Virus record (IMG/VR): IMGVR_UViG_3300046517_002960
Coordinates: 1-64,000 of that record
From: a virus
Direction: 5' to 3' (one strand)
DNA: 64,000 nucleotides
The first letter of the stretch is position 1. Each line of letters starts with the position of its first letter. The notes beneath the pieces are model-generated. The model was given only the letters and a program-made list of their open reading frames with translations. It searched no databases and was not told the origin of the DNA. Below, piece after piece: positions 1,613 through 54,561 of the stretch. Made by a program: the position numbers and the translations under genes.

Positions 1613-1675
1613 CCGGCCTGCGCGCGTACCTGAGCCACTGACAATCTCCGGCTAGCCGGACAATCACCCGCCACT

Positions 1676-1738
1676 AGGCGAAACGCGCGGTGTGCGCGTC
1701 TGCGGGACATGGCCTACCCGCACCGACGATGCCAGGCC
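1676..1738 (+). ncRNA. type II hammerhead ribozyme HH1
   Basis: ggc-GAAA-cgcgc/gcgcg-UC; stem I ugcggg/cccgca; core CCGACGA; U-gcc; loop ggccu pairs 3' aggcc; predicted cut after C1700. Confidence 0.88.
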
Positions 1739-1764
1739 ACCGAACCAACTGATCGGGAGAGATC

Positions 1765-2508
1765 ATGTCCGACGTCATCCTGTACGCAAGCGCTGTCAAC
1801 CGCGGGCGCACCGCGTGGAACGCGACCAGCAAGTCCGCATGGACGCTGGCCGAGATCGCGGCCAACGTCGAAACCAAGTACGCGGAGAACACGCTGGTCA
1901 AGCTGGCCGCCGCCATCGCGGGCGACGACCTGTCCGGGGCCACGCTGGCCAATTACCGCACCGTGTGGCTCGCCTACGTCACCGATGAGAGCGACACGCG
2001 GGACGTCAAGAACAGCAACAGCTTCACCGTGCACGAGAAGTTCGCGAAACTGCCCGACCGCGTCAAGCTGCTGGCCAGCAAGCACTGGTCCGCGAGTGAG
2101 GCCCGCGCCTACGTCAAGGCGCTGAACGCGCCGGAGCCGGGCGAGGACGAGGTCGACGGTGAGGGCGCGGGCGAGAGTGCTGGCGCCGGCGCCGAGTCGC
2201 CCAACCGCCGTGACTGGCTGGTTAACAAGATCGCCGAGACTGAGGCCAAGCTGCTCAAGTGGTACACCGAACTGTCCGAGATTGACGCTGCGGACGACAC
2301 GGACAGCACCGACGCGGACAGCGCCGGCACCACGCCGGCTGCGCCCGTGCTTCACATCGTGGGCGGCGGCGTGCCCGAGCACGACGCCAGCGCCCCCCAC
2401 GCGGCCTGCCCCGTGTGCAAGGACCTGGGTATCGCGCCAGCCGTCACCGAGCAGGCCGGCTCCCCGCGCCGCGCCCGTCGCAACCGCCGCCAGCCGGCCG
2501 CCGCGTAA
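1765..2508 (+). CDS. hypothetical protein with acidic linker
   Basis: 247-aa ORF directly after HH1 and its RBS. Confidence 0.75.
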   Translation: MSDVILYASAVNRGRTAWNATSKSAWTLAEIAANVETKYAENTLVKLAAAIAGDDLSGATLANYRTVWLAYVTDESDTRDVKNSNSFTVHEKFAKLPDRVKLLASKHWSASEARAYVKALNAPEPGEDEVDGEGAGESAGAGAESPNRRDWLVNKIAETEAKLLKWYTELSEIDAADDTDSTDADSAGTTPAAPVLHIVGGGVPEHDASAPHAACPVCKDLGIAPAVTEQAGSPRRARRNRRQPAAA

Positions 2509-2520
2509 CCCGATCGCCGA

Positions 2521-2553
2521 GCCGGCCACGGTGCCCCGCGCACCGTGGCCGGC
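2521..2553 (+). terminator. 14-bp perfect GC hairpin (terminator or processing stem)
   Basis: gccggccacggtgc-cccgc-gcaccgtggccggc after stop at 2508; no U tract. Confidence 0.4.
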
Positions 2554-2565: not shown

Positions 2566-2650
2566 AGGCGAAACGCGCGGATCCTCCGGCTGACCGGAGA
2601 GTTCCGCGCGTCTGCGGGATATGGCCTACCCGCACCGATGATGCCAGGCC
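2566..2650 (+). ncRNA. type II hammerhead ribozyme HH2
   Basis: stem III cgcgcgg/ccgcgcg with CCGG hairpin insert; GUC cut after C2612; stem I ugcggg/cccgca; core CCGAUGA. Confidence 0.9.
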
Positions 2651-2953: not shown

Positions 2954-3106
2954 ATGATCACGATAACCGCCACCCCGCAGGTCGGCACGCCGGCCGTGCA
3001 GGACGCCGCACGTGCCCGCGCGATCACGGCCGGCGTGCCTACCCGCCAGCCTGACAGGTGGCAGCGTTACGCGGACATGGCGCAGGTCGGCTGGACCACC
3101 CATTAG
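2954..3106 (+). CDS. 50-aa hypothetical protein
   Basis: GATCAGGAG RBS; TAG stop overlaps start of HH3. Confidence 0.6.
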   Translation: MITITATPQVGTPAVQDAARARAITAGVPTRQPDRWQRYADMAQVGWTTH

Positions 3107-3189
3107 GCGAAACGCGTGATTCTCCGGCCAGCCGGACAATCGCGCGTCCGTGCGGCGCTGGCCTGCCGCGCGCTGAATGATGCCAGGCC
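3105..3189 (+). ncRNA. type II hammerhead ribozyme HH3
   Basis: stem III cgcgugauu/aaucgcgcg; cut after C3148; stem I cgugcggc/gccgcgcg; core CUGAAUGA (1-nt insertion). Confidence 0.85.
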
Positions 3190-3212
3190 ACCGAACAGAT
3201 CAGGAGACAGAT

Positions 3213-3506
3213 ATGACCCGCCAGACCAGCCAGCCCGCGCAGCCCGGCAACGAGCTGTACTTCACCGCCGGGACTAAGCGCGCAGCCCGCATCGGGCGCA
3301 CGATGGTCGTCGTGACCGATGGCGCGCGGATCGAGATCACGCTGCCCGTGCGTGACGGCGAGGCGACCGCCATCACGGTCACGCGCGACCCGGACGTCAA
3401 GGTGGCGAACCGCGTGCGCAAGCCGGCGGCCGTCAAGCCGCAGGCCAGCAAGCCCGCTGCCAAGCCGCAGGCCGCGCGCAAGCAGCCCGCCGGCGCCGCC
3501 AAGTAG
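3213..3506 (+). CDS. small protein with Lys/Ala/Pro tail, paralog of 529-1281
   Basis: LYFTAGTKRAARIGRTMVVVTDG vs IYFTRTCKRRQRLGDTLVIRTDD; TAG overlaps HH4. Confidence 0.75.
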   Translation: MTRQTSQPAQPGNELYFTAGTKRAARIGRTMVVVTDGARIEITLPVRDGEATAITVTRDPDVKVANRVRKPAAVKPQASKPAAKPQAARKQPAGAAK

Positions 3507-3591
3507 GCGAAACGCGCGTGACTCTCCGGCCAGCCGGAAGATTCCGCGCGTCCGCGAGGGATGGCCTACTCGCGCTGAATGATGCCAGGCC
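3505..3591 (+). ncRNA. type II hammerhead ribozyme HH4
   Basis: stem III cgcgcg/cgcgcg; cut after C3552; stem I cgcgag/cucgcg; core CUGAAUGA. Confidence 0.85.
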
Positions 3592-3741
3592 GCAGATCAG
3601 GAGTGACGCAGGCATGACGAATTTAGGCTGACCAGCCACCTGTGATCCGCTAGCCGCGCGCATGGCGCAGGTGACGCGGTGATACCGCACGCCGCCGGCG
3701 GCAGAACGGCGGGATTACCGGGACCGCGCACGACGACACAC

Positions 3742-4038: not shown

Positions 4039-4124
4039 GCGAAACGCGCGGGATTGTCCGGCCAGCCGGAGGATTCCGTGCGTCTGCGGGGCGCTGGCCT
4101 GCCCCGCACCGATGATGCCAGGCC
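4037..4124 (+). ncRNA. type II hammerhead ribozyme HH6
   Basis: stem III cgcgcgg/ccgugcg; cut after C4084; stem I ugcgggg/ccccgca; core CCGAUGA. Confidence 0.9.
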
Positions 4125-4152
4125 GCTACCCGAGACAGGTCAGGAGACAGCC

Positions 4153-4345: not shown

Positions 4346-4430
4346 AGGCGAAACGCGCGGAATCCTCCGGCTGACCGGAGACTCCGCGCGTCCGCAGGAC
4401 ATGGCCTGCCTGCGCTGATGATGCCAGGCC
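4346..4430 (+). ncRNA. type II hammerhead ribozyme HH7 (canonical CUGAUGA core)
   Basis: stem III cgcgcgga/uccgcgcg; cut after C4392; stem I cgcagg/ccugcg; core CUGAUGA. Confidence 0.93.
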
Positions 4431-4451
4431 GCACACGATCAGGAGACCGAC

Positions 4452-5205: not shown

Positions 5206-5291
5206 AGGCGAAACGGCGCGATTCTCCGGCCAGCCGGAGGATCGTGCCGTCTGCGGGGCGCTGGCCAGTCCCGCACCGATGATGCCAGGCC
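5206..5291 (+). ncRNA. type II hammerhead ribozyme HH8
   Basis: stem III cggcgcgauu/gaucgugccg; cut after C5251; core CCGAUGA. Confidence 0.9.
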
Positions 5292-5312
5292 ACGCACGAT
5301 CAGGAGACCGAC

Positions 5313-6249: not shown

Positions 6250-6332
6250 GCGAAACGCGCGGATCCTCCGGCTGGCCGGAGAGTTCCGTGCGTCCGCAGG
6301 ACATGGCCTGCCTGCGCCGATGATGCCAGGCC
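6248..6332 (+). ncRNA. type II hammerhead ribozyme HH9
   Basis: stem III cgcgcgga/uccgugcg; cut after C6294; stem I cgcagg/ccugcg; core CCGAUGA. Confidence 0.9.
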
Positions 6333-6360
6333 GCACACCTAGTGATCAGGGGAAACGATC

Positions 6361-9122
6361 ATGACTCACAGCACGCCCGGTGACCGGGCACGGATCGCGG
6401 CTGCCGAAGCCGCGCAGGCACGGATGCTCGCGGCGCTGCCGGACTTCCCGCAGTTCGGCTTCTACGTCAAGACCGGGCTGGCCGGCTACGGGCCGGACCT
6501 GGACGAGAACGACTACCCGGCGCGCAGCTGGGAAGACGTCGCGCACCAGGTCGCGGAGGAGCTGTCCTTCATGGCGGACTTCAACGCCGAGGGCGCATCC
6601 GCACTGGCCGACCAGGCGCGCGAGGCGCACGACGAGGCGCGCGAGGTTTTCCGGCTGTACGCGTCGGTCGCGGACTACCAGGGGATCGCGGACACGTACC
6701 GCGATGCGGACGATGCGCGCCGGCTCGCGGACGAGCTGGGCACGCTCGCGGCCAACTTCTCCAACCTGGCCAAAGAGCTGAACCCCGCGCCGCTGTACCA
6801 GGGCCGGCCGGAGCTGCGGCACGCGCGCATCTGGGACCTGATCAGCCAGCTCCCGGTGTACGTGTCGGACAACTTGAAGCTGTACGTCTGGGAATGCGAG
6901 GAAGACCCTGGCGATCCCGACGACGCGGAGCCAGGCGGCGGCTACGGGCCGGCCGGGGCCGGTCACACCGACGAGCACGACATCGCCCGCATGGAGGGCG
7001 ACGGCGCCGGCCTGTACTGCGCAGGGGCGTAATCCTCCGGCCGGCCGGACAAATCACGAACGGGAGACAGGCATGAGCGACACCACGCAGGAGCACAACA
7101 GGCAGGCCGTGCGGCTCCGCGCCGCACTGTACCAGGAAGACGACGCCACGCTGGGCGCCATGCTGGCAGGCGGGACGAGCGTCCGGGCCGCGTTCGCGCA
7201 GCGGGTCGGCTGCGGCGACCTGCCGTACTCAGTCATCGAGCACGAGTTCACCGCCCACGCGGCACGTCAGCTCCGGCGCCTGGCGGACGGGGGCACGCTG
7301 TGAAGGCCGGCGTCGTGCGGATGAGCGACAAGACTGACGGACCATCGATCAGGAGACAATCATGATGCCGCCGATACCAGCCGTGGTCCTGCTGCCCACC
7401 GAGACAGCGCACGGCTACTGGCCGGCCACCGTGGTCGCGGCCATCCCGCTCGGCCACGGCAACCTGTACGCCGTGACCGCCATCGAGCCCACCTCGTCAC
7501 CGGACGCACCCGCGTTCTTCGCGGCCGAGGCCGGCCGGAGCATCCACGGGTTCTGGGTCGCGGACACGGATACGGACACCTTCCCCGCCCCTGCCCTGGC
7601 CGATGCACTGGCCGCCATGACCCGCATGGCGGGGCTGCGCTGACCTTCCGGCCGGCCGGAACCTGAGAGGAGACGATCATGAGCGGTGCGCGTACCCGGC
7701 GGATGCGCCGGATTGCGGCAAGCAGCGAGCTAGGCGACCTAGTCGCGAAGCTGCGCGCGAACGGCGCGGCATGCGACAGCGACTGGATGCGCCGGCACGA
7801 ATCACGCGAGGACGGCCAGCTGTGGCTGACCGCGCCGGTATCGCACGCCGACAAAGCGTCCGACACGCTAGCCGACTGCAACTACGAGGTCGCCAGCGAG
7901 CTGCTGCGCGAGGCGTCAGGCTTCGCCCGCTGGACGGTGTACGACGCGGCCTGGCACTTCGCCGGCACGGACATCAAGGTCCCGCGCGGTGGTCACCGCT
8001 ACCTGTCCGGCGGCATCGCCGAGCGGTCGGACGCGTGGCCCGGCGGGCTGATCGAGACGATCCTGGTCCGCGCGGATGACGCTGCCGCGCTGCGCGTGCT
8101 GGCTGGCATCATCGACGCGCTGGCCGGTTACCCGTCGCTGGACGACGCGCGGCTGGCCGAGATGGAGCACGAGCAGGCTCATCCGTCCGATCACGAGTGC
8201 TACGCGGACGCCGGCTGCGGCTGCGCCGTCCGCAACCACGGCCATGCGCCGGCTGACAGCAGCATCGATGCCGGCGACACCACAGACGACGGCGATGCCT
8301 GGTGCCAGCTGTGCGGTGACTGGGTTCCCCTCGGCACGACCGTCACGAACGGCGTGCTGTAGCAGCAGCGATACCGCGACTCCATACTGACCAGCAGGAT
8401 CAGGAGAACGACCATGCCCACAATCACGGCCGAAGTCACCGCACCGACCTTCCGCACCGAGATCACCAGGTCCCGGCTCACGATCGAGCTGCCCGAGCGG
8501 CACATGAGCGTGGAGATCTTTGACGACGGCACCGTCCGCGTCACGCAGGAGTCCCACGACATCCTGGACGGCGCCCCGTCCGCGCCGGATTTCCCGCGCT
8601 ACGCGCCCGGCGGCGAGTACGAGTTCCGGCTGCCCGACCAGGTGGAGGTCAACGCCATCTGCGACACGCCCCTGGGCAGCCCGGACTTCGACAGCGGGGG
8701 CGCGTTCACGATCGCCGCGACCCACCGGCACTGACCAGGCCAGGAACAGGAGCACTGACATGAGCGACACGAACAACCTGCCCGAGATCACCCTGCGCAC
8801 CAGCCCGCAGCTGTCCATCGGCGACGCCGAGGAACTGGCCACGTGGTTCCTGCACAAGATGGGCACCGAACTGCGCGCCAGGCTGATGGCCGAGCGCCCG
8901 GTGCTGTACGCGCGGGTGTACCCCAGCGTCAACCCGGACGCGATCATGCGCAACGTAACAGCCGGCCTCGCCCGCGTGCAGCAGTCACAGGCCGAGGCGT
9001 TCGCGGCTGCCGCGGACAGGCATCTTCTCAGGCAGCGCCCCGGCCACTACCACGACCCGGCGGGCACGTACGACTACTGCACCGACAAGGCGTGCCCGCG
9101 CCTCAAGCCGCCCGCGTCCTGA
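6361..9122 (+). CDS. six hypothetical ORFs (6361-7032, 7073-7303, 7362-7643, 7679-8362, 8414-8734, 8760-9122)
   Basis: each preceded by an AGGAG/GGGAG-type RBS; acidic phage-like proteins; no family recognised. Confidence 0.7.
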
Positions 9123-9124
9123 CC

Positions 9125-9210
9125 GGCGAAACGCGCGGAACCCTCCGGCCGACCGGAAATTCCGCGCGTCTGCGGGGCGCTGGCCTGCCCCGCACCGACG
9201 ATGCCAGGCC
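9125..9210 (+). ncRNA. type II hammerhead ribozyme HH10
   Basis: stem III cgcgcggaa/uuccgcgcg; cut after C9170; stem I ugcgggg/ccccgca; core CCGACGA. Confidence 0.9.
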
Positions 9211-9226: not shown

Positions 9227-11627
9227 ATGAAGTATTTCAGGATCCGCGAGGGCACCGGCATCGAGCAGGTGCTGGCGGATGAGGAGATCACGCCGGGCGA
9301 CGGCGCGTACTCGGCAGCCGAGGTGACGGAGGTGCTGAAGGCCCTGTTCGCGGACCAGCAGGTCCTGCGGCAGCCGAGACGCGGCGGAGAGCGCGTCACC
9401 GCAGGCGTGAGCCGGCCGCAGGACAGCGACGGGTACCGGGTGCTGGTGCAGGCACCGGGGCAGGATTTCTGGCTGGCCTCGAAGCTGGTCTTCGCGGGCA
9501 ACGCGAACGGCGTGGCGTACCGGGACTTCCCGGAGCTGATCGAGGACGCGGTGCGCATCGCGAACGCGATGCTCCGCGCGTGGGACAGGCACGGCGCGCA
9601 GTGAGCGGCGGGCAGGCGGTCCAGACGGGCCAGGTCATCCCCCTGGCCTGCGGTCACGCGCACACGGTGCAGTTCAACGACCCGAAGGACCGCGCCGCGC
9701 TGTTCTTCTGCGGCACATGCGACGGGCTGCGCGCGGCTCTCCCGGCTGACACGGATCCGGGCGAGGACGAAGACGAGTACGAGGACGAAGACGAGGACGG
9801 GGACGCGATGGGTCCGGGCACGGCGCTGCTGATCGTATCGGACGCGATCCCGGCCCGGGCGCGCACCGCGGAAGTGGAAGCCGCGCTGGACGTGCTGCAC
9901 CGCCTGGCGGAAGGCACGCTGAACGAGAGCGAGAGCATCTGACGCCCTAGCAGGCGGAGCGCACGGAACCTCCGGCTGACCGGAGCATTCACCGATACTG
10001 GCCGAACAGGATCAGGAGACAAGAGCCATGCGCTTTTACATGGACTACTGGAACCGGCGCGGGAAGAACTACGGCGCCGGCATGAGCGACGGGTGCACCG
10101 CGCACGTGCGGGGCTGGCGGGCCGGCGTCCGCGTCCAGATCGGCGCGCAGGACGCCGACAAGGACCGGGACGAGGTCGCGGTCTGGATGACCAGCGGCAG
10201 CAACGGCGGACACGAATCCGCGTACCTGGGCACGGTCCGGGAGACGAAGGACGGGCCGCGCTGGGACGCGAGCGCGAACAGCAAGCCGTCGCGGAGTGCC
10301 AGGGCAGCTGCTCTCCGCGCAGAGCTGGCCGGGCTGCACAGCCAGCTAGCACAGGCACGCCGGGAGCTGGACGACGCCCCGGCTGCTGCCCGCGCCGAGC
10401 TGGACGATGTGCGCGCGGCGATCACGGCTGCCCGCGCCGAGCTGGCCGACGTCCCGGCCGCTGCTTACCGCGAGCTGGCCGGTGTCACGGACCGGATAGC
10501 CAAGCGGCGGCAGGCTCTGGCCGGCATGCCGGAGCCGCGCAGCGCAGACGAGAACCATCCGGGCATCGCACGGCACGCGCTCCAGCTCGCCATCAGCGCG
10601 CTGGAGGACGCGGCGGAGCGCGCGTTCGCATCCGGCCAGGGCACGGACTTCGAGTCGGAGACGGCGCTGATAGACCTGCGCGCCGAGCTGGGCCGGCTGG
10701 ACAAGCCGCGCATCACGACCACGCCGGCCGAGGGCTGCGACGCCTGGGACGAGGAGCTATGACCACGCTGAGGGAGCGCATCCGCCAGAACCAGATCACC
10801 GCGAAAGCAACCCAGCGCGAGGGGCCGCCCGCCTACGTCGACTGGGGTGGTGACGAGCGCGGCGGGACCGCATGGTGGGACGTCACGCTGAAACTCGGCC
10901 GGGGAGAGGACAAGCGCCAGCTGACGGTCCCGTTCGGCCTGGGGCCAGGCTTCATGGGCAAGCCGCCCGACGCGCTGCGCGTGCTGTCGTGCCTGTGCGA
11001 GGACGCGGCTGGCTGGGAGAACGCCGATGGCTTCGAGGACTGGGTGCGCGAGTACGGCGCGGACGAGGACGACGGCACCAAGAACATGCAGCTGTACCAG
11101 CGGGTCACCGATGGCGTCAAGCGGCTGCGCCGGTTCCTGGGCGAGACGTACGAGGACTACTTGTGGGATACGGAGGACGTGTGATGAGCGTGGAAAGCCG
11201 TCGCGCGCAACTGCGCAGCCAGATCGCTGAGCCAGTCATCACCGGGGACATGACCCGCGCCGAGCGCGATGCCGAGATGGACCGCTGGCTAGCGGACTGC
11301 CAGGCTCAGAGCAAGCGGCTGGACGAGGAGCACATGCTGCTCGGGATCGGCCGGAGCGCGGCGGTCTGCATGACGCACGAGATCACCGGCCCCTGGCTGA
11401 GCGCCACGGCCAGCCGGTGGTACCTGGCCCTGCCCGAGCGGTACATGACCCCGGCCAGCATGGCCCGGCCGGACTGGGATCACAGCCACTACCCGCACGA
11501 CGAGCACGGGCACATCGGCCGGGTCACCACGCTCCAGCGGCCGAAGACCCAGGCAGACACCGAAGCGGAGAAAATGGTCGCCGCCATCCTGGCAGACATC
11601 GCCCGCGAGGACGCGGAGCCGGGATAG
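9227..11627 (+). CDS. five hypothetical ORFs (9227-9604, 9601-9942, 10028-10762, 10759-11184, 11184-11627)
   Basis: RBSs and start/stop overlaps; 10028 has a coiled-coil repeat; last TAG overlaps HH11. Confidence 0.7.
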
Positions 11628-11843: not shown

Positions 11844-11927
11844 AGGCGAAACGCGCGGATTCTCCGGCTGGCCGGAGGATCCGCGCGTCTGCGGGAGACG
11901 GCCTCCCCGCACCGATGATGCCAGGCC
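11844..11927 (+). ncRNA. type II hammerhead ribozyme HH12
   Basis: stem III cgcgcggauu/gauccgcgcg; cut after C11889; core CCGAUGA. Confidence 0.9.
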
Positions 11928-12141: not shown

Positions 12142-12260
12142 CCTGGTGGAGCGGGCCGCCCGCATCCAGCACCGGGGTCAGGAGAACACCATGAAAGAGG
12201 TCGCACTCACCCTTCCGGCTGGCCGGAACATCACGAGATAACGATCAGGAGAGAAGCACC

Positions 12261-14218: not shown

Positions 14219-14305
14219 AGGCGAAACGGCGCGCATTCTCCGGCTGACCGGAGGATCGCGCCGTCTGCGGGGCGCTGGCCTGCCCTGCACCGATGATGCC
14301 AGGCC
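14219..14305 (+). ncRNA. type II hammerhead ribozyme HH13
   Basis: stem III cggcgcg/cgcgccg; cut after C14265; stem I ugcgggg/cccugca; core CCGAUGA. Confidence 0.9.
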
Positions 14306-14323: not shown

Positions 14324-17300
14324 ATGGAAACGCTGCAATTCGTGCGGATGATCGCGGGGCTCTCCCGCAGCGATGAGCCGGACGCGCCGGAGAGCAAGCC
14401 CGGCGACGACGCGATCGAAGCCATGGACAACCTCATCGCCATGGCGCGGGAGATCGCCCCCGCCCTGGAGAGCACGCTGCGGGACGCCCTGACCGAGGCG
14501 GACCGGGCACTGGGCGGCGACTCCAACGACGACGAGCACGACGCGCTCTACAGCGTGCGCGAGACCATCGCCGGGCTGCTGGGCGACGACTCCGAGCCGC
14601 CGAGCCCGGACTACGACGGCACCGAGGAAGTGCCGCTGGAAGAATGCCTGGAGGCCGCGCGCAAGCTGGGCGCGGAGCACGGCAAGGCAGCGGGCACCTG
14701 GGCGTTCGACGGCAACACGCCGCATGAGACGTACGTGGCGGCACTGCGCGGCATCCGCGAGGGCGACCCGGCGGTGCTGGACAGGTTCAATGCGCCGCCG
14801 GGCATCGGCAGCGAGTACGCGATCGAGAGCCTGTACTACGACCTGGACCTGGCCTACCCCCCGGACCGGCCCACGCCGGCGGAAGCCAGCGAGATCGCGC
14901 AGATCACGGAAGCGTTCGAGCAGGCGGAGCAGGACGCGTTCTGGGCCGAGGTGGAGCGCGCGGCCCGCTACCAGGTGGAGGGAGACGGATCGTGAACACC
15001 GTCAGCTACGAGGACCTGAGCGCAGCCAGGCAGGCCGAGGTCACCGGCACCCGGCATTACAGCGTGTACGGGCGGGCCGGGTGAGCCCGGCGCAGGCCGA
15101 GCGGGTCTGGCGCGGCTGCGCGCTGGCCGCGCTGAACGCCAGCTACTACCACGACGCGCACGACTTCGCGTCCGTCACGCTGTGCGGCCTGCCGCTGACC
15201 GGGCTGCGCGAGGACCGGGTGACGAACGGGATGCGGGAATGCCCGGCCTGCGCGCGGGTGGCCGCCGGGCACGCCGGCCACAGCGCGGATGACTGCCCGC
15301 TGCCCCGGCCGCTGCCGCGCACCGCGTTCTACGAGCGGATGCGGGCCGGGCATATCAGCAGGACGGGCCACCGGCTGAACGCCGTGCTGATCCCGGCAGG
15401 CGGCGGCATCATGCGCGTGCAGCGATCCTGCTGCCAGGACGAGTGAACAGGAGGGTAACAGATGACTGACTACGACGGCGCGCTGGACAGTTTCGATATC
15501 GAACCGGAAACCGGCGACGTGCTCGCGTGGGTTCACGACGGCGAGCGGTACGTGCACCCGGTCAGGATCACGCACGCCGAGCTGGCCGGCATGGCAGAGG
15601 CGTCCGGCGAGGCGTTCCAGGTGCGGACCGTACAGTGCGCGCGGTGCCACCTGAACCGGCCGGCGTTCGAGCTGAACAGCTTCGGCATCTGCGTGGTCTG
15701 CGTAACGGCAGGCCGCTGATGTCCGGCAACGGCTGGATCTGCTACACATCCTGCCCGGCCAGCGAAGTCCCGGCCGGCGCGATCTGGCACGCCGAGGAAC
15801 GACGCTGGTTCAGCGCCGGAATCCTGCGCGCCGAGTACTCGTGGGGCGACCCGGCCAGCCACCCGGACTGGCGGTGGCCCGGCTTTACCGGCATGCCATG
15901 GATGCGCACCATCAACACCTCCCTGCCGGAAGGCGACCCGCGCCGGGTGACCTACTTCCGTGACCGGGACGCAGAACCTTCCGGCCAGCCGGACAATCAC
16001 GATCAGGAGGACGATCATGAAAGGCGCACCGCTGAATGACGCGGACCGCGAGGAGTGGATCAGGAACGACGAGGCCCTGCATGACTGGTGGAAATCCACG
16101 CACCAGGGAATCAGCACGTTCATCCGCGCCAACCGGGCCGAGCTGGACAAGCTGATCATCGCGGTGCGGGACGCGCCGCCGCCCGAGCGCACCTGGCGCG
16201 ATTACATTTGAGCACACGATCAGGAGACACGATCACACATGAGTAACGACATCACGCCGGCCCTGGACACCACCGTCCGGGTGACACCGCGCATCCGCGA
16301 GCTGCTGACGCTGCTAGCTGACCCGCACGCGCCGATGCTGCCGGGCGAGCGCGCCGAGCTGGCCGGGCTGGTCCGGCTGCTGCTGGCCCGGCCGATCCCG
16401 GACCAGACCGTCAACGCCGGCTACATCGTGCAGCACGTCATCGACGGCTATCCCCGCGAGCCCGGCGCGTACCGGAGCTGGCTGGTCGCCTGCGAGGACC
16501 CGGCTACCGGCGAGTGGGTGACCTGGGAATGCTACGTCATGGACGACGGCGAGCACCCCGGCCGGCTGGCGTACGGCGCTGGCCACTACTTCTACAGCTC
16601 CGACCCGGCCATCAACAAGCACCGGGCACTGCGGGACCTGGCCCGGCGGGCGGGCGTCCCGGTCGCCACGGTCAGCATGGACACGGACGAAACGCTCAGC
16701 CGGCTCACGGACTGGCCGTACGACCTGAACTACAAGGAAGCGGACGACCTGATCGCAGGCGCGGACGCGCAGCCAGGGCGCGAGGTCGGCCACGGCACGG
16801 CGCGGCTGACCCGCCGCGAAGACAGCAGCTCCGTGCGCTACGACCTGCGAGAGCAGCCGAAGCGATGAGCGCCGCGACCCCGCGGGACACGCAAGATCAC
16901 ATGCTCGGCTCGGGCGCGCTGTCCTTCTCCTGGTGGCAGAGGGCGGTCACCGCGGACGCGGACACGCCGCAGTGGACGGCCGTGCTGTCGTGCGAGGACG
17001 GGTACGGCGGCACGAAGACCGTAACCGTAAGCCACGACGTCGTGCTGGCGACCGCACGGCAGGTCGTGGGCAGTGCGGGCAAGACGCTGCGCACCCCGCG
17101 AGGCAGCGAGTACCCCGCATGGTCCCGCACCCTGGAGCAGCAGTGCTGGCGGCTGCTCACCGACCCGGACGACGCCGATTTCGACGCGCCCTGCGCGGAT
17201 GAGCTGCTTCAGCTCGCGGTGCTGGGCGAGGTGGTCTTCGGCTGACCCGGCCGTAATCACGCGATCAGGAGATTCATGATTCACATGACGAACGAAACCG

Positions 17301-18349: not shown

Positions 18350-18433
18350 GCGAAACGGCGCGATTCTCCGGCCAGCCGGAGGATCGCGCCGTCTGCGGGG
18401 CGCTGGCCAGCCCCGCACCGATGATGCCAGGCC
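18348..18433 (+). ncRNA. type II hammerhead ribozyme HH14
   Basis: stem III cggcgcgauu/gaucgcgccg; cut after C18393; stem I ugcgggg/ccccgca; core CCGAUGA. Confidence 0.9.
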
Positions 18434-21172: not shown

Positions 21173-21226
21173 CCCTCCGGCCGGCCGGACGATCCATGAC
21201 AGAACCAGATCAGGAGACGAGAACTG

Positions 21227-23929: not shown

Positions 23930-24016
23930 AGGCGAAACGGGCGCGATTCTCCGGCTGGCCGGATGATCGCGCCCGTCTGCGGGACGGTGGCCTTCCCGCA
24001 CCGATGATGCCAGGCC
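23930..24016 (+). ncRNA. type II hammerhead ribozyme HH15
   Basis: stem III cgggcgcgauu/gaucgcgcccg; cut after C23977; stem I ugcggga/ucccgca; core CCGAUGA. Confidence 0.9.
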
Positions 24017-28937: not shown

Positions 28938-29758
28938 GTGCTGACCGTAGCCGGCAGGCCCGGCGAGACGCTGGCAGAGAAGATCGCCCGGCTGAAGGAC
29001 GGCACCTGGCACGCGAGCGAGCGGCCGGCGCAGGTGACCGGCAACGTCTGGCGCAAGGCGCCGGGCGGCGTCCCGGTCCGCACCCGGCGGCCGGCCTGGC
29101 GGGGCCGGATCTTCCGCCACCCGCCAGGCGGGAACCGGCCCGAGCAGGACGGCTGCCAGCACAGTCACACGACGGTCAGCGGGGCGCAGCGCTGCGCCGG
29201 GCAGGAGGCCAGGCGGCGGAACCGCGAGCTGGCCAGGACAGGGAACGACACGGATCAGGAGACATGACATGCGCGATGACCCGGACCTCACAGCTGCGGC
29301 GGCAGAACTCGGCGGGACGCTCCGCCGGCTGTTCCCGTCCCCTGCTGACGTGGAAGCAGCGCTCCGCGATGGCCTGATCCGGGCGCAGTCTGCCGGCGGG
29401 CCGGCCGGCGAACTGGCTGCCGGGCTGATCGAGGTGATGAACCTCGCGCACCGCTGGAACCTCCAGTCGGGAGACGACCCGGGCGCCACGATCAGGCCCG
29501 GCGACGCGGCAGGCGAGATCATCAACGCGATAGCCCGCGGGCTGGGCAGCTGAATCCCCGGCCAGCCGGACAATCACAGATCAGGAGAGGCACATGAGCG
29601 AAGACAGGCCGATGGACCTGAACGAGAACATGCGGATGCACATGATCTACACGCACGACCGCACCCTGGAAGACCTCGCCGGCCGCTCCTACGACAACCT
29701 GAAAGCCGAGCACGACACGATGGACTGCCCGGCGACCCGCGCAAAAGACCCCCGATGA
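28938..29758 (+). CDS. hypothetical ORFs (28938-29267, 29269-29553, 29594-29758)
   Basis: downstream of promoter copy 1; RBSs for the latter two. Confidence 0.55.
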
Positions 29759-29879
29759 CCGCCACCGCGCCCGGCGCCACGATCAGGCCCGGCGACACGG
29801 CAGGCGAGATCATCAACGCGATAGCCCGCGGGCTGGGCAGCTGAATCCCCGGCCGGCCGGACAATCACAGATCAGGAGA
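29482..29879 (+). repeat. 107-bp direct repeat (29482-29588 and 29773-29879)
   Basis: 2 mismatches; each copy holds a gene 3' end, the CCGG motif and an RBS. Confidence 0.92.
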
Positions 29880-34000: not shown

Positions 34001-37000
34001 ACCGAGGTGCTGTTCGCGGACGGCCACGAGCCAGGCGGGCTGACGCCGGCGATGTGGGAGGACGTCATCAGCACCCGGCTGGCGCACGTCCTGGCCCGGC
34101 TGCTGCTGGACGAGGCCTTCGGCGGGCTGGACGGCGAGCTGTGGAGCGCCGAGTCGCCGACCGGCCGGGAGACGTGGGGGCGGGAGAGCGCGGCGTACGA
34201 GGTGCGGCTGGTGCCGGACCCGGAAGCCGGGCCGTGAGCACCGGCTACGACGAGGCGGATGCCTACGAGCTGGCGGCGAACCTGCACGTGCTCCGCGCGG
34301 TCATCCTCCACGGCAGGGGAAGCGGGCCGCTTCCCCTGCCGCCGATGGGCAGCGTCCCGGAGCCGGCGGAGCTGAGCGAGGCTGAAGCCCGGGCCGTGAT
34401 GGCCGGCGCCACCCAGATCGTCCTGGCGCGGCTGCGCGGCAGAGGCTACCCCGATCCGGAGGTAGCGGACATCAACAGCGGCCGGTGCGTGGACTGGGCT
34501 GAGCTAGTCTGCGGTGTCGTCGCCGGCATGATCATGACCGAGTGGGACGACCCGCAGTCCGGGCTGCTGCACACGTTCGTGCACTGGCAGGGCCGCTGGT
34601 ACGACGCCGAGCGGCTGGACGGCACGGCGGATGTCACCGGCCTGCCCATCTTCAGCCGGTTCCCGGGCACCCGGAGCGGACCTGAATTCGTCCGCAACAC
34701 CGCGGATGTACTCGCCGAGTACTGGCGGGATTAGGGTGGCCGGCGCGGTGCTGGCCTTCATCGGCGGGCTGGTGCTCTGGACGTTCCTCGCCAGGGCGGC
34801 GATCCGCCGATGCAACCGGGAACGATGACGATCAGGAGACGAGACGCTGATGACGGAAGCAGAGAAGGACGCGCTGGCGGACCAGCTGGCTATAGGCGTC
34901 CTGCTGGAAGCGTTCGGCCCGCTCGGGATCAGCGTGCGGGCCTGCGACGCGGCGTTCGAGGCGGTGCTGGGCAGCAGCGCGTTCGAGGGTGACCTGGTGC
35001 AGGCGCTGGGGGACTGCGTGTCCGCGCCGCAGGACGGCTGGTGCCGGTGCACCCTGGACCGGACGCGCCGCTTCCACCGGGGTGACTGCCCGGTCGATCC
35101 CGGCGGGCAGTTCCGGTTCACCGGAGCGGAGCTGACCGGGCGGCCCGGACTGGAAAAGGCACGGCCATGACCCGTCAGAAGGACACGTGGCGTTCGTCCA
35201 GGGGCGCGCAGGCGTACCGCGAAGCGTACCGGTATATCGCGGACGGCAACCCGGACCTGCCAGCCGGGCAGCAGCGGCGGCTGGCGCTGCGCTACCTGCG
35301 CATCACGGCATCGCCGCCGCTGAGCTGGAGGGGCACGCTGTCGGCCTGGCGGGCCGCGCGGGAACAGGGACAGGAGAAGAACGCATGAGCAACGGCGACA
35401 TCCTGGGCGCGATCGCGGTCCTACTGGCGGAGGCCAGCTACGACAGCGGGCTGTCCCGGAAGGAATGGACGCGGGCACCCGCGGTCCAGGCGCGGCAGGC
35501 GCTGTGCGCGGCGCTGGGCATCGACGCCGGCGAGCAGGACGCGGACCGCCTCCGTGCCCAGCTGTCCGTGATGCTGGACGTCACCGGCCAGGACTGGCCC
35601 CCGGACCTGAGCGACCCGCACGTCCAGCGGGGGCGCGAGCTGGCAGCCGAGGAGAGCGACCCGGAAATGCTGACGTCGGTGGACCGGCTCTACTACGCGT
35701 CCTGGCTGCTCCGGCAGAACCATCCCCGGGTGACGGATGACGACTGGATGGTGTGGGGCAACCTAGCCGACCACCTGGAGTGGGCGGCGCACATCCCGGA
35801 GCGAACGGGCGGGAGCCAGGACTGGCGAGCGTTCAACCGAGCGCAGGACCTGGCCACCGGGGTCATCCGGCTCCAGGACCATCACGCGCCGACCCGGGCG
35901 AAGCTGCTGCGCTGGGTGGGTGAACTGTCGTGAGCAGGCCCCGGCCGGTCGCCTGGACGGCAGGCAAAGCACGGCACGGCCGGCACACCGCATTGGTGTG
36001 GAACGGCGCGATGGGCCTGCCGCCCGGCTGGGCTGTCTGGCTGCCCGGCAGCGAGTTCCCGGTCAGCGAGGGCGACGCCCGGACCATGGACGCCGCCCGG
36101 GAGCAGGCCGGGGACGAGCTGCGCCGGCTGGCCCGGCAGCGCACCAGGATCAGGATCACCCGCTGCCACGACCCGGACCTGCGCGGCAGGACCTACGGCG
36201 GGCACACCGCGAGCACCATCGGGCGGCGGCTGTTCGGCCGCACGGCATACGCGATCCCGTCCGCGGACCCTAATAACCGGGGCCAGGGCATGATTGCCCG
36301 GGACGACAGGCACGGCACGCACGTGCTGGCCGACTACGTGGAGTACAGCGAATGAGATGGACGATGAGCCGGGACGGCAAGCGGCGGACCACGATGCGCG
36401 CGTCCTTCCGGCTGGACCGCCAGAACCTGACTGACATCCTGTGCTACCTGGCGCTGAGCCAGGGCTGGGACGTGGACGGCAAGCCCCCCAGCACGGCCTG
36501 GCTGGAAGGCCAGATCCGGGCTGAGCTGGAGTCGCACGGCATGGGCCAGTGGCCGTACTGGCGCGAGGAGCTGCCCGATGACGAGCAGGCCGCCGCGGTG
36601 ATGGCCTGGGCGGCCCAGCAGGTAGCCCGGCTGGCCCCGGCCGGAAGCTGAGAACAGGAGACGGGACATGAGCGAGCAGGAGATTCACTGGCACCTGGAC
36701 ACCGCCGTCTGGCAGCGGGCGGCGTTCCGCGGATACGATGCGGAAATCTGGTGGACCGGGCCGGGCACGCAGCTGAGCTGGCAGATCCACCTGCTGGGCG
36801 AGAACGAGCTGGACCCGGTGGCCCGGGGCACGGGCGCGGACGAGACGGACGCCAAGGCGCAGGCCGGGTACGTGCTGCGGAAGCTGACCGCCGCGGAGCT
36901 GACCCCGGCGCAGCTAGCCGCGCTGAAGCAACTGGCCGACCCGGCGCGCACTCTCGAGAGCACGCTGTTCGCGTTCAACGGGGTGCGGGTCACCACGGCG

Positions 37001-39616: not shown

Positions 39617-40672
39617 ATGCTGATTAACGCGGCGGGCCTGGACACCAGGCCACCGGAGGAAGTCGTGAAGGGGATGATCCCTCGTGTGGGCGCGGGCTTC
39701 GCCTGGGGGCCGTCGTACTGGGGCAAGTCCCTGGTATTCGGCGGCGAGCTAGCCCTGGCGGTCGCCAACGGGCACCCGTTCCTCGGCCGCGAGGTAATCC
39801 GCGGGTCCGTCGCGCTGTGCCTGGGCGAGGGCCTGTACGACGCCGGGGTGCGCAAGCAGGCCCGGATCATCCGGCAGCAGCGCGACAACGCGGCGCACGC
39901 GGCGGCCCTGTCCGAGATCGAGGACGACCCTGCCGCCGGGGCGGAGTGGCTGGAAGGCCAGCAGCCGTACACCGACGACCGGCTGTTCATCGAGACCGAG
40001 GCCTTCGTGCTGCCCGTCGATGCCCGGGGCGGGATCAGCCCGGGCATGCGGCAGGCGCTGGACGGGCTGGCCCGGCTCCCGGACCTGGAGCTGGTCGTCC
40101 TGGACTCGCTGGCCAACTTCACCGGGGGCGCCTCGCTGTCCCACGACGCGTCCGCGAACCGGATCATGCTCGGCATGCACGCGATGGTGGCGGAGCTGCA
40201 ATGCTGCGTGCTGGCCATCAGCCACCCGACCGCGAAGGGCGATAAGATGCTCGGCGCGCTGCGGCTGTTCAACTCGGCGGACTTCGTGTACCAGATCGAG
40301 CCGGTGCAGGGCAGCCCGGGCAGCGGCAGCCCGATGGTCGCGGCGCTGGCCTGCCAGAAGAACAAGTACGGGCCGCCGTTCGCCCCGGTGCAGTACGTCA
40401 TCGAGCCGATCGAGTGGGCCGAGCCGGCCACCGATGACGCAGGGAACGTGCTGGACGGCGAGCCGGACGTCACGACCCGGTCAGCCACGGTGCGGCTGCA
40501 CCAGCCGAAGTCCGCGAAAGTGCTGCGGCTGCCGTCCCCGGAACTGTCCGGCCAGCCGGAGAATCAGCCAGGGCTGCGGCTGGCCGCGCCCGTCATGGCC
40601 CCGGCCAAGCGGACCGGGATACGCCCCACGGCCGGCCGGGGCGGGGCGGTCTTCGCACTGAGAGGGATGTAG
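39617..40672 (+). CDS. AAA_25/RepA-like P-loop ATPase (helicase-type)
   Basis: Walker A GPSYWGKS, LCLGEG, Walker B LVVLDSLA, ISHPTAK...GALRL. Confidence 0.8.
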   Translation: MLINAAGLDTRPPEEVVKGMIPRVGAGFAWGPSYWGKSLVFGGELALAVANGHPFLGREVIRGSVALCLGEGLYDAGVRKQARIIRQQRDNAAHAAALSEIEDDPAAGAEWLEGQQPYTDDRLFIETEAFVLPVDARGGISPGMRQALDGLARLPDLELVVLDSLANFTGGASLSHDASANRIMLGMHAMVAELQCCVLAISHPTAKGDKMLGALRLFNSADFVYQIEPVQGSPGSGSPMVAALACQKNKYGPPFAPVQYVIEPIEWAEPATDDAGNVLDGEPDVTTRSATVRLHQPKSAKVLRLPSPELSGQPENQPGLRLAAPVMAPAKRTGIRPTAGRGGAVFALRGM

Positions 40673-52582: not shown

Positions 52583-52751
52583 GCACGCTCACCACCCGCG
52601 ACCGGACAGCGCAGGCCAGGCCCCCGTGCAGGTCCAGGCCGGCCCGGTCACGGGCGGAGGGCGGGCCGGCGGGTTGCCCCCCGGGCCTGAGCAGCGCCAG
52701 CAGCCCTGGTCCCGGGTTCCCGGGGCACTCGGCCGGCCGTCCCTCCGCCTG

Positions 52752-53468
52752 TCACGGCGCGGTCCACCAGTCCAGCCGCATGACCTTCTCCGTGGCCAGC
52801 CCGGCCGGAATGCGGCGGCCGTCCGGACCGGGCAGCCACACCCGGGCGCAGGCATTGATCACCACGTCGTCGCTGCAGTACGGCCAGGTCCACAGCGGCT
52901 CCCGGGTCATCCCCAGCGGCTCGAGCACCGCGCCCAGCGGCGCCCCGGTCTCCTCCAGGGCGCGCAGCGCGTCCGCGCCGCCCGGGCAGTCCCGGACCCG
53001 GCCGGGGATGACCAGCGAGGTAACCCGGGCGCACAGCCGGCTGCCGCGGGCGGTGCGCAGCTCGCCGCGGCGCCGCAGCGCCAGTATCCGGCCGTCCAGG
53101 TGCGTGACCAGGTGCTTGCGCTCGCCCGCCGTCATCGGCGTGGTGCCGTCCCGCACCACCCGGGCAGTGACCGGCTCGCCGGCGTACTCCCCGGCCAGGT
53201 TCGTGAACAGCTCCCCGGCGGCCATCCGGCGGACCAGGGCGCCCACGGGGCTGACGTCGTGCTCGTCCGGGAGCAGGGTGGGCAGGCCCCCCGGCGGCCC
53301 CGGCAGGCGCTCGTCCAGGGCACGGGTGATGCCCGCCACCTTGGCGGCGTCCGGGGCGTCGGCGTCGGCGATGCGCCGGATGACGGCGATGACGTCGAAG
53401 AACGTGCCGAGCAGGGACAGGTCGGGGGGCAGGTCAAGGCCGGCGGAGGGCGCGGGTGTCTGCTGCAT
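52752..53468 (-). CDS. possible chorismate-lyase (UbiC)-like protein
   Basis: RRGELR...CARVTSLVIPGR...APLGAVLEPLGMTRE resembles UbiC/UTRA-fold proteins; weak. Confidence 0.4.
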   Translation of the reverse strand: MQQTPAPSAGLDLPPDLSLLGTFFDVIAVIRRIADADAPDAAKVAGITRALDERLPGPPGGLPTLLPDEHDVSPVGALVRRMAAGELFTNLAGEYAGEPVTARVVRDGTTPMTAGERKHLVTHLDGRILALRRRGELRTARGSRLCARVTSLVIPGRVRDCPGGADALRALEETGAPLGAVLEPLGMTREPLWTWPYCSDDVVINACARVWLPGPDGRRIPAGLATEKVMRLDWWTAP

Positions 53469-53573
53469 GAACCGAAAGTAGTCCCGCGGTCACGCAAAAG
53501 CGATCAGCAGAGCGTAGTTTTTTCACGCTCAGTAGCACGCCGGTTACAATGCGGAGGCTCAGAGGTGCGGCCG

Positions 53574-54470
53574 TCAGAACCGCCCGCCCAGCTTCGCCCA
53601 GCTCCAGCAAACCGGGCTGACCGCCGTGGTATAGCAGCACATCGCGCCCTCGGCGTTGACGTAGATGACCCGCATCCGGTCGTTCGCCGGGTCGTACGCG
53701 ATGCCCGCGCCGCCCCGCGCACCGGACTGGCCCGGGTCAGCCGCCGCCCAGGAGCCGTCCCCGATCTTCACGTTGACCTGGCCGTTACCCTCCCAGACGC
53801 CGACATGCCAGGGCCGCCCGGACCCGTCGAACGCGACGTCCGCGGCGTACGTGCTCCCGGCTGCGCTGGCTGCCCCGGATGGCCGTGGCCACTGGCCGTG
53901 ATCCGTAGTCCAGGCCTCGTCGTCATCGATCGTCCCGCCGCACATGGCGAAGTCGTACTTGACCTGCCGTAGCTGGGCGCGGGGTTCCCACATCCCCTCG
54001 CTCCAGCTACGGCACTGCCACGCGTAGGTGATCCGGCCCGCATCGAGCTGCCGCTTGCAGAACGAGTCGTCGCCGTACCCGCCGGCCCGGGCCTTGCCGA
54101 TGACCGACTTCACCCCGTCGAAGTACGCGTCGACCAGGGCCTTCTGATCCGGGGCCATGACCTCGAAATCCTGGTCGCAGCTGAAGTACAGCGGGATGCC
54201 GCGCAGGCCCAGGCCGTTCGCGAAGCTGTCCGCGGCCCGCGCGTCGGCCTGACCGCCGGAGTAGCCCCGGGATGTCTGGGTCTTGCCGTCCTGGTGCACG
54301 ATGCACACGCTCATGCCCAGCGACATCAGCTTGTCGAGTTCGGCCTTCGACAGGTTCTTCGTCGGATCGCTGGAGCTGTACCGGCAGGCAAACGTGTACC
54401 CGGCGTTCTTCATGCAGTTCAGGTCGGGGCGGGACCACGAGTAGTCGCAGCCCCTGGCTACCAGCGGCAT
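53574..54470 (-). CDS. DUF1906 (Rv2525c-like) glycoside hydrolase, putative endolysin
   Basis: GCDYSW...GYTFACRY...KNLSKAE...PLYFSCD...AGGYG...YAWQCRSWS...QLRQ. Confidence 0.85.
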   Translation of the reverse strand: MPLVARGCDYSWSRPDLNCMKNAGYTFACRYSSSDPTKNLSKAELDKLMSLGMSVCIVHQDGKTQTSRGYSGGQADARAADSFANGLGLRGIPLYFSCDQDFEVMAPDQKALVDAYFDGVKSVIGKARAGGYGDDSFCKRQLDAGRITYAWQCRSWSEGMWEPRAQLRQVKYDFAMCGGTIDDDEAWTTDHGQWPRPSGAASAAGSTYAADVAFDGSGRPWHVGVWEGNGQVNVKIGDGSWAAADPGQSGARGGAGIAYDPANDRMRVIYVNAEGAMCCYTTAVSPVCWSWAKLGGRF

Positions 54471-54561
54471 GCCGGGCTCCTCCGCACGAGGGGGGATTTC
54501 CCGGCTCCCGATTCTCCGGCTGACCGGAGGAAGGCCGCGGGCTCCAGCCCCAGCGTAGCCC

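What the first reader, a model, noticed from the sequence alone, without database searches (positions are those of the whole stretch)
1647..54528. Modular TCCGG-CYRR-CCGGA element, 24 copies, inside and outside the ribozymes
Seen: the element caps stem III in 12 of the 15 hammerheads and also stands alone at 1647, 7036, 7647, 9971, 12214, 15980, 21176, 26197, 29558, 29849, 40547 (inside the AAA gene) and 54515 (in the minus-strand block, upstream of the lysin). The arms are fixed and the centre varies (CCAG, CTGA, CTGG, CCGG, CCGA, CTAG). Free copies usually follow a stop codon and precede an (C)AATCAC-like word and the RBS. HH1 lacks the insert but has a free copy 16 nt upstream. Inference: a binding site for an element-encoded protein, either an RNA hairpin (boxB-like antitermination, nuclease site, 3' end protector) or a DNA operator. 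The copy at 54515 lies in + orientation in a minus-transcribed region, which favours a DNA-level or orientation-independent role.
Basis: partly seen in the sequence, partly recalled or inferred. Interest (0 to 1): 0.75.

Follow-up and report, generated by a model that had tools for sequence, protein, structure and literature searches.

The report
Shared hairpin module in phage ribozymes
A 14-24 base palindrome (TCCGG-4 bases-CCGGA) really does recur about 36 times in this large soil phage, both as the tip of its self-cutting hammerhead RNAs and on its own at gene ends. Related phages keep the same arms with their own centre, so it looks like a self-copying standard hairpin rather than a proven protein docking site.

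Summary
The window holds 23 exact TCCGG-N4-CCGGA copies (0.27 expected), 22 of them family members, plus two CCCGG variants. The whole 190-kb phage record holds 34 exact copies.

- Twelve copies cap stem III of 12 of the 15 type II hammerheads. The rest lie at gene ends, in a tRNA spacer, or in C-terminal ORF tails.
- With its flanks the unit is a 24-nt dyad: RATYC-TCCGG-N4-CCGGA-GRATY.
- Four further related phage lineages found here carry the same arms (97 exact copies across the five lineages). Each lineage has its own typical centre (CYRR, TCAG, ACGT, ACAG), and centres occur in both orientations.
- Orthologous junctions show gain, loss and replacement of the module.
- Free copies fold weakly as RNA (-6 to -12 kcal/mol, no better than shuffles). 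Arm pairs never show G-U, although neighbouring stem III pairs do.

Best reading (0.45): a self-homogenising palindromic hairpin "part" that sits where a hairpin is needed or tolerated. A dimeric binding protein (0.3) is not excluded, and no partner was identified.

Earlier notes of this scan describe similar palindromes at the tips of RNA-processing hairpins in other phages. Those notes are unchecked.

The parts
2585..2598 (+). module (centre CTGA), tip of stem III of hammerhead 2566-2653
3123..3136 (+). module (CCAG), tip of stem III of hammerhead 3105-3192
3525..3538 (+). module (CCAG), tip of stem III of hammerhead 3505-3594
4057..4070 (+). module (CCAG), tip of stem III of hammerhead 4037-4127
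4366..4379 (+). module (CTGA), tip of stem III of hammerhead 4346-4433
5225..5238 (+). module (CCAG), tip of stem III of hammerhead 5206-5294
6267..6280 (+). module (CTGG), tip of stem III of hammerhead 6248-6335
9144..9157 (+). module (CCGA), tip of stem III of hammerhead 9124-9213
11863..11876 (+). module (CTGG), tip of stem III of hammerhead 11844-11930
14239..14252 (+). module (CTGA), tip of stem III of hammerhead 14219-14308
18367..18380 (+). module (CCAG), tip of stem III of hammerhead 18348-18436
23950..23963 (+). module (CTGG), tip of stem III of hammerhead 23930-24019
1647..1660 (+). free module (CTAG), 15 nt upstream of the capless hammerhead HH1 (1676-1741). The same 'module plus capless hammerhead' layout is seen in relative L179.
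7036..7049 (+). free module (CCGG), 3 nt after the stop of 6361-7032 and 23 nt before the start at 7073
7647..7660 (+). free module (CCGG), 3 nt after the stop of 7362-7643 and 18 nt before the start at 7679. The orthologous junction in phage B also has a free module.
9971..9984 (+). free module (CTGA). It is orthologous to free modules in L178, L179 and L181, which are followed there by a two-hairpin RNA that is deleted here.
12214..12227 (+). free module (CTGG) upstream of the 449-aa gene, lying inside a 16-codon mini-ORF. The orthologous junction in phage B carries a capped hammerhead.
15980..15993 (+). free module (CCAG), followed by CAATCAC and the GATCAGGAGG RBS
21176..21189 (+). free module (CCGG), 3 nt after a TGA and 37 nt before the start at 21227
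26197..26210 (+). free module (CCAG), 4 nt after a TAG. The word GGCGAAAC lies upstream of it, so it is possibly a hammerhead relic.
29557..29570 (+). free variant CCCGG-CCAG-CCGGA, 3 nt after the stop of 29269-29553
29848..29861 (+). free variant CCCGG-CCGG-CCGGA, with the same flanks as the 29557 copy (a duplicate)
40547..40560 (+). module (CCAG) inside the C-terminal tail of the AAA_25 ATPase ORF (codes SGQPE), beyond the part that is homologous to G001
54515..54528 (.). module between two minus-strand genes. The centre reads CTGA on the + strand and UCAG in the transcript.
35112..35125 (.). exact arms but centre TTCA, inside ORF 34850-35170, with flanks unlike the family. Probably a chance match and not counted as a member.

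Best explanation
The element is a roughly 24-nt dyad-symmetric 'standard hairpin part': RATYC-TCCGG-N4-CCGGA-GRATY. It belongs to a clade of large, high-GC soil phages.

In RNA it forms the tip of stem III of the type II hammerheads that punctuate the early gene array. There it makes a helix of about 17 bp that ends two bases before the cleavage site, so it becomes the 3'-terminal hairpin of each cut message. This step is shown by sequence and folding.

The same part also sits alone in places where a hairpin is wanted or harmless. These include positions just after stop codons, between convergent genes, in a tRNA spacer, and in dispensable C-terminal tails.

I infer that its uniform sequence is kept mainly by copying between copies. 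Short-patch gene conversion or templated repair between self-complementary repeats can anneal in either orientation. That would explain four things: lineage-typical centres, flipped centres, presence/absence differences at orthologous junctions, and the lack of half-decayed copies. Selection then acts only on 'a hairpin here'.

A dedicated binding protein is not required by the data, but it is not excluded.
For: - **Real and enriched.** The motif is 85-fold above shuffles.
- **Helix in the ribozymes.** Stem III with the module folds to -23 to -34 kcal/mol, against -9 to -19 for the three capless hammerheads.
- **RNA-level pairing around the arms.** G-U pairs occur in the flanking helix of the ribozyme copies (13 of 197 pairs).
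- **Long stem III is general.** Other high-GC phage type II hammerheads have long stem III helices of unrelated sequence.
- **Concerted evolution.** There are 97 exact copies in five lineages. The arms are identical and the centres are lineage-typical: G000 CYRR, L178 TCAG/CCAG, L179 ACGT in 13 of 16, phage B ACGT in 15 of 15, L181 ACAG/ACGT. This holds for embedded and free copies alike.
- **Conversion at an orthologous site.** The free copy upstream of the same gene is CTGA in L178 and L181 but ACGT in L179.
- **Flips.** CCAG versus CTGG, and CTGA versus TCAG, occur within the same strand and context.
- **Gain, loss and replacement:**
  - The tRNA-Leu/tRNA-Gln spacer is 25 nt with the module in G000 and 4 nt in G001.
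  - The convergent junction at 127071 has the module only in G000.
  - At 124965, relatives carry different, longer hairpins at the same spot.
  - An orthologous hammerhead has its whole stem III swapped.
- **No half-decayed copies.** nhmmer finds copies that are intact or absent.
- **No transposase.** No Y1 transposase is present.
Against: - Free copies are weak RNA hairpins (-6 to -12 kcal/mol, z-scores +0.3 to -2.3). 'A hairpin is needed here' is therefore doubtful for them.
- Arm pairs show no G-U (0 of 94) and no compensated variants. The centre is always exactly 4 nt. This is stricter than RNA pairing alone needs and would suit sequence-specific recognition.
- Free copies are kept at two orthologous early junctions in three or four lineages while the neighbouring spacer diverges.
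- The copying mechanism itself is inferred, not observed.
Confidence: 0.45

Rival explanations
1. The module is a dyad-symmetric DNA site for a dimeric phage or host protein, in the manner of an operator, stoperator or ESAS. The half-sites are RATYC-TCCGG and the spacer is not contacted. The site is lodged in the only sequence-tolerant part of each ribozyme.
For: - Arms are invariant and spacing is fixed at 4 bp in 97 copies, with a freely varying, orientation-free centre.
- The half-site consensus is equal on both sides, with A at -4 in 65 of 70 half-sites.
- No G-U occurs in the arms although neighbouring pairs tolerate it.
- Free copies are not thermodynamically special.
- HH1 lacks the insert but has a copy beside it.
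- A weak winged-HTH protein lies at 28522-28848 and has no G001 homologue.
Against: - No binder was identified.
- Late-region sites are not conserved at orthologous junctions.
- One copy sits between two tRNAs.
- The lineage-wide uniform centre (ACGT) is unexplained if the centre is not read.
- Dyad symmetry is automatic for any hairpin.
Confidence: 0.3
2. The module is an RNA hairpin recognised by a sequence-specific RNA-binding protein, either boxB/N-like or like the histone stem-loop and SLBP. That protein would define or protect message 3' ends or tune ribozyme cleavage.
For: - The module sits right after stop codons, and 10-13 nt before the ribozyme cut.
- Arms and flanks are conserved.
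Against: - The loop varies at all four positions and occurs flipped. Known hairpin-binding proteins read loop or bulge bases.
- Some copies lie in a tRNA spacer and at a convergent junction.
Confidence: 0.1
3. There is no independent module. Free copies are only debris of dead hammerheads, and they share the tip by descent.
For: - Clear relics exist. L178 11554 keeps the 5' half of a hammerhead plus the module. L179 1172 and 2783 have a 5' half plus module followed by a capless hammerhead. GGCGAAAC lies upstream of the 26197 copy.
- The orthologous junction of the 449-aa gene has a capped hammerhead in phage B and a free copy in G000.
Against: - Eleven copies lie in the late half of G000, where no hammerhead occurs. 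They include a tRNA spacer and a convergent junction that are absent from relatives.
- Free copies share only 25-29 nt with the ribozyme.
- Relics should decay in the arms too, but none do.
Confidence: 0.1

Closest known systems
Clustered type II hammerhead ribozymes flanking single genes in prophages (Perreault et al. 2011, PMC3088659; Rfam RF02276)
   Same: The embedded copies are the distal part of stem III of such ribozymes, which sit at gene boundaries of a long early transcript. The pseudoknot between the stem I loop and the 3' tail is present.
   Different: Here there are 15 ribozymes in 24 kb. Stem III is about 17 bp long and is capped by one fixed palindrome, which also occurs outside the ribozymes. 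I found no such shared module in the passages of that paper I read by term search.
SAS/ESAS repeats of Cluster K mycobacteriophages (Pope et al. 2011, PMC3203893; function still untested in 2025, PMC12699233)
   Same: Both systems have a conserved RBS-containing word at many starts in the non-structural genes (here GATCAGGAG, 50 forward versus 4 reverse). In both, a subset of starts is preceded by an inverted repeat whose consensus differs between related phage groups. Function is unknown in both.
   Different: The sequences are different. ESAS arms are 17 bp, imperfect, and separated by a variable 4-13 bp spacer. Here the arms are 5 (10 with flanks) bp and the spacer is always 4. ESAS are not parts of ribozymes.
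Stoperators of Cluster A mycobacteriophages (PMC9283540)
   Same: Both comprise tens of short conserved sites in short intergenic gaps across a phage genome.
   Different: Stoperators are 13-bp asymmetric sites bound by a monomeric repressor, and their orientation follows transcription. This element is symmetric and orientation-free, and no repressor is known.
REP/BIME-type repetitive extragenic palindromes and other small palindromic repeats spread within a genome (own knowledge)
   Same: Both are short extragenic palindromes in many copies, with genome-specific sequence and insertion polymorphism. Both are tolerated in transcripts.
   Different: This is a phage genome rather than a bacterial one. 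No RAYT/Y1 transposase was found and there is no GTAG head. Most copies are built into a catalytic RNA.

Membership tests
Type II hammerhead ribozyme (RF02276), for the 12 embedded copies | Conserved core (CUGANGA, GAAA, cleavage triplet), three stems with stem II open, and a match to the Rfam model | tested here: met
   13 of the 15 match RF02276 at E<1, and 2 are above the gathering score. The long stem III insert lowers the scores. The cores were read directly.
Type II hammerhead ribozyme (RF02276) | Self-cleavage activity | not testable with these tools
   This needs in vitro transcription or end mapping.
Stoperator (Cluster A mycobacteriophages) | An asymmetric 13-bp site whose orientation follows the direction of transcription | tested here: not met
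   The arms are self-complementary. Centres occur in both orientations on one strand.
Stoperator (Cluster A mycobacteriophages) | A cognate immunity repressor encoded by the phage | tested here: inconclusive
   Twenty window proteins were scanned and only a weak IclR-type winged HTH was found, at 28522-28848. The whole proteome was not scanned.
ESAS/SAS (Cluster K mycobacteriophages) | A 13-bp SAS (GGGATAGGAGCCC) at starts, with 17-bp imperfect inverted repeats and a variable spacer just upstream | tested here: not met
   The RBS word is different (GATCAGGAG), the arms are 5-10 bp, and the spacer is fixed at 4 nt. The layout is analogous, but the element is not a member.
REP elements mobilised by RAYT | An associated Y1 (IS200/IS605-like) transposase and a conserved GTAG head | tested here: not met
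   PF01797 is absent from the 190-kb record while the controls were positive. No GTAG head is present. A host-encoded enzyme cannot be excluded.
Intrinsic (Rho-independent) terminator | A GC-rich hairpin followed by a U tract | tested here: not met
   No terminator-like site lies on the + strand in 1-20 kb. Only the 127071 copy has a T run. Free hairpins fold to -6 to -12 kcal/mol.
boxB/nut-type antitermination hairpin | A conserved loop read by the N-type protein, with few copies at operon starts | tested here: not met
   The loop varies at all four positions and flips. There are 36 copies per genome.
RNase III processing hairpin (T7 early region type) | About 20 bp of double-stranded RNA, often with an internal loop, cut by host RNase III | tested here: inconclusive
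   The embedded helices are about 17 bp. Free copies have only 5-6 bp. Cleavage is not testable here.

The most novel reading that the evidence does not exclude
The module is the docking site of a clade-specific protein that acts on the ribozyme tips and on the free copies alike. For example, a dimer could bind the 24-bp DNA or the stem III tip and thereby gate self-cleavage or fix message 3' ends. That would make this a protein-controlled hammerhead array, and it would give the first handle on what ESAS-like repeats in actinophages do.
Probability: 0.2. Interest if true: 0.8.

Novelty: new variant of a known kind. Interest (0 to 1): 0.6.

Why it matters
Hammerhead arrays in phages have been known since 2011, and repeated intergenic palindromes in actinophages (ESAS, stoperators) since about the same time. 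The two had not been connected.

Here one fixed palindrome is both a building block of a catalytic RNA and a free-standing gene-boundary element. It evolves in concert across both contexts in at least five phage lineages.

If the uniformity comes from copying, this is a clean natural case of molecular drive shaping ribozyme sequence. If it comes from a binding factor, it would be a natural protein-addressable ribozyme array.

In either case it warns annotators in two ways. Rfam thresholds miss 13 of these 15 ribozymes because of the insert. Conserved palindromes in phage genomes are not automatically operators.

Tried and rejected
- **IMG/VR pattern scans** for the capped ribozyme and for the extended module. 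Only the distant relative G001 turned up; all other hits were chance.
- **GTDB genome scan** for module plus hammerhead. Chance hits only, so no prophage and no host clue.
- **Protein-based locus search** with the 449-aa protein in IMG/VR. Nothing found.
- **Exact-protein look-up** of my own call of the phage B gene. Not on record.
- **Restriction or methylation-site reading** (GANTC, GATC, TCCGGA, CCGG, FseI). Observed/expected ratios are unremarkable: 0.76-1.16 for all but TCCGGA, which is mildly low at 0.52.
- **Y1/RAYT transposase.** Absent.
- **Modules as recombination breakpoints** between cassettes. 19 of 53 block edges lie near an element, against a 29% null (p = 0.17). Not supported.
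- **Similarity to the Ro60-binding strand** of the phage's Y RNAs. It is limited to GCCGGA. Dropped.
- **SD/anti-SD mimicry** of the two halves (read from the flanks). Not conserved in free copies or in the ACGT lineages. Dropped.
- **The 9971 copy as a decayed hammerhead.** The apparent GGCGgAgC remnant aligns to the coding 3' end in relatives, so this is uncertain.
- **Rfam** finds no family for the free copies or for the two-hairpin RNA.
- **Direct comparison of late intergenic regions with G001**. Too divergent to read.
Full report
**What is there.**

The pattern TCCGG-N4-CCGGA occurs 23 times in the window, against 0.27 expected from shuffles. One match (35112, centre TTCA, inside an ORF, unrelated flanks) is probably chance.

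The window is the first 64 kb of a 190,216-bp virus record of about 70% G+C. The record holds 34 exact copies in all. Thirty of them lie outside my crude ORF calls, which cover about 70% of the genome.

Fifteen type II hammerheads lie between 1.6 and 24 kb. Rfam finds 2 above threshold and 13 at E<1, because the long stem III insert lowers the scores; the other two I read directly. In 12 of them the module is the tip of stem III. It gives a helix of about 17 bp with -23 to -34 kcal/mol, against -9 to -19 for the three capless ribozymes. The helix ends two bases before the cleavage site, so it would be the 3'-terminal hairpin of the upstream fragment.

**The unit is larger than 14 nt.**

The left flank and the reverse-complemented right flank have the same consensus, R-A-T-Y-C, next to the arms. 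A occupies position -4 in 65 of 70 half-sites. nhmmer shows that free copies share 25-29 nt with the ribozyme copies. The unit is therefore a 24-nt dyad.

In the early array, free copies lie 0-20 nt after a stop triplet (mostly 0-8) and 18-43 nt before a start codon behind the recurrent word GATCAGGAG.

Eleven copies lie in the late half of the genome, mostly with a CCGG centre. One sits between convergent genes next to a T run. One sits in the 25-nt spacer between tRNA-Leu(CAA) and tRNA-Gln(CUG). Two copies lie in frame in C-terminal ORF tails, both coding SGQPE, beyond the region homologous to the relative G001.

**Relatives.**

IMG/VR held only a distant relative, G001 (210 kb, 45-79% protein identity). 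Its hammerheads have long stem III helices built from related but different words (TCCSA-CYRG-TSGGA paired with TCCGG-CYRG-CCGG). These words are used in both orientations, and G001 has only 4 exact copies of the G000 pattern.

A metagenome scan and homologues of a 449-aa early protein gave four closer lineages: phage B (L057, L065, L093, L137), L178, L179 and L181. All have dense hammerhead arrays whose stem III is capped by the same arms, plus free copies after stop codons. Together the five lineages hold 97 exact copies.

The arms never vary apart from four single mismatches, and the centre is always four bases. The centre is lineage-typical:

- G000: CYRR
- L178: TCAG, CCAG or CTGA
- L179: ACGT in 13 of 16
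- Phage B: ACGT in 15 of 15
- L181: ACAG or ACGT

Embedded and free copies of one genome share the type. At one orthologous junction the free copy is CTGA in L178 and L181 but ACGT in L179. At another, four lineages have four different centres between identical arms. Centres also occur flipped (CCAG/CTGG, CTGA/TCAG) within the same strand and context. This is concerted evolution of a module that is used without regard to orientation.

**Turnover.**

- The tRNA-Leu/tRNA-Gln spacer is 4 nt in G001 and 25 nt in G000. The difference is the module with its ATTC/GAAT flanks.
- At the convergent junction at 127071 the relative L186 has a 10-nt spacer and G000 has 36 nt containing the module.
- At 124965, right after a conserved stop codon and before a conserved GC hairpin, L185 and L186 each carry a different, longer hairpin where G000 carries the module.
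- An orthologous hammerhead (G000 11626 versus phage B) has conserved flanks, core and stem I but an entirely different stem III.
- The junction upstream of the 449-aa gene has a free copy in G000 and a capped hammerhead in phage B.
- Relics exist: the 5' half of a hammerhead plus the module, without the 3' half, in L178 and L179.
- Relatives have no module in the 16-21 kb of late region that is syntenic to a G000 stretch holding two.

**RNA or DNA, structure or sequence.**

Points in favour of an RNA role:

- In the ribozymes the flanking helix shows G-U pairs (13 of 197).
- Long stem III helices of unrelated sequence are common in other high-GC phage type II hammerheads.
- At 124965 the conserved feature across phages is 'a hairpin', not its sequence.

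Points against structure alone:

- Free copies fold to only -6 to -12 kcal/mol, no better than shuffles.
- Arm pairs show no G-U (0 of 94) and no compensated variants.
- The spacing is fixed.

These last points would suit a dimeric DNA-binding protein. They can also result from homogenisation among self-complementary repeats, which would at the same time explain lineage-typical centres, flips and the absence of half-decayed copies.

A protein that reads the loop is unlikely, because the loop varies and flips.

**Verdict.**

- Most likely (0.45): a self-homogenising palindromic hairpin 'part' whose demonstrated role is to build the long stem III. It also occupies hairpin-permissive sites.
- A dyad DNA site for an unidentified protein: 0.3.
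- An RNA-binding-protein site: 0.1.
- Mere ribozyme debris: 0.1.

**Comparison with what is known.**

The nearest described things are:

- the hammerhead clusters of Perreault et al. 2011;
- the SAS/ESAS repeats of Cluster K mycobacteriophages, whose function is still unknown;
- stoperators, which are asymmetric and orientation-dependent.

The element is not a member of the ESAS, stoperator, REP/RAYT, terminator or boxB families (see the membership table). Earlier notes of this scan describe palindromes at the tips of RNA-processing hairpins in other phages. I used them as analogies only.

**Negative results.**

- No Y1 transposase.
- No restriction-site-like bias.
- No host or prophage hit in GTDB genomes.
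- No sigma-70-like promoters or T-run terminators on the + strand of the array.
- No significant association of modules with synteny breakpoints (p = 0.17).

Noticed in passing
whole record; window starts such as 2939, 3198, 4437, 16001, 26220: The word GATCAGGAG, which contains the Shine-Dalgarno, occurs 50 times on the + strand and 4 times on the - strand. It lies just upstream of start codons and resembles the start-associated sequences of Cluster K mycobacteriophages.
   Followed up: partly
L178:8175-8275, L179:8765-8865, L181:8592-8692 (orthologous to window 9985-10010, where it is deleted): A conserved RNA of about 100 nt follows the free module. It has two hairpins whose loops are complementary (GUGGC/GCCAC). 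One compensatory C-G to A-U change between lineages occurs in the second stem. No Rfam family matches. It occupies the position a hammerhead occupies elsewhere, so it is a candidate processing element.
   Followed up: partly
window 12191-12241: A 16-codon mini-ORF (MKEVALTLPAGRNITR) with a strong RBS runs through the free module at 12214. It stops 19 nt before the 449-aa gene.
   Followed up: no
window 40547 and genome 97874: Two in-ORF copies lie in the same frame (coding SGQPE) in C-terminal tails that start where homology to the G001 orthologues ends. This resembles in-frame palindromic insertions.
   Followed up: partly
hammerheads of the window versus G001 (L039-L049, 144.7-154.4 kb): The pseudoknot between the stem I loop and the 3' tail co-varies between phages. 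It is UGGCC with AGGCC in this phage, and UGACC with AGGUC in G001.
   Followed up: no
window 1647-1741; L179:1146-1290 and 2765-2890: The arrangement 'module (with or without a relic 5' half of a hammerhead) followed by a capless hammerhead with a GUGUG-type stem III loop' recurs in two lineages.
   Followed up: no
genome 124900-124960 (L183:4900-4960) and its orthologues in L185 and L186: A strong GC hairpin (CCCCCGCG-N4-CGCGGGGG) directly after the variable hairpin position is conserved in three phages. It lies upstream of a minus-strand gene start.
   Followed up: no
window 28522-28848: A 108-aa protein gives a weak IclR-type winged-helix match (E = 2e-4, below the Pfam cut-off). It has no homologue in G001, which also lacks the TCCGG family. 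It is the only DNA-binding candidate seen among the 20 window proteins scanned.
   Followed up: partly
homologues of window 12261-13610: The 449-aa ORFan early protein has more than 70 metagenomic homologues. It also has distant homologues (30-32% identity) in Prauserella and Amycolatopsis genomes, which hints at a Pseudonocardiales-type host.
   Followed up: no
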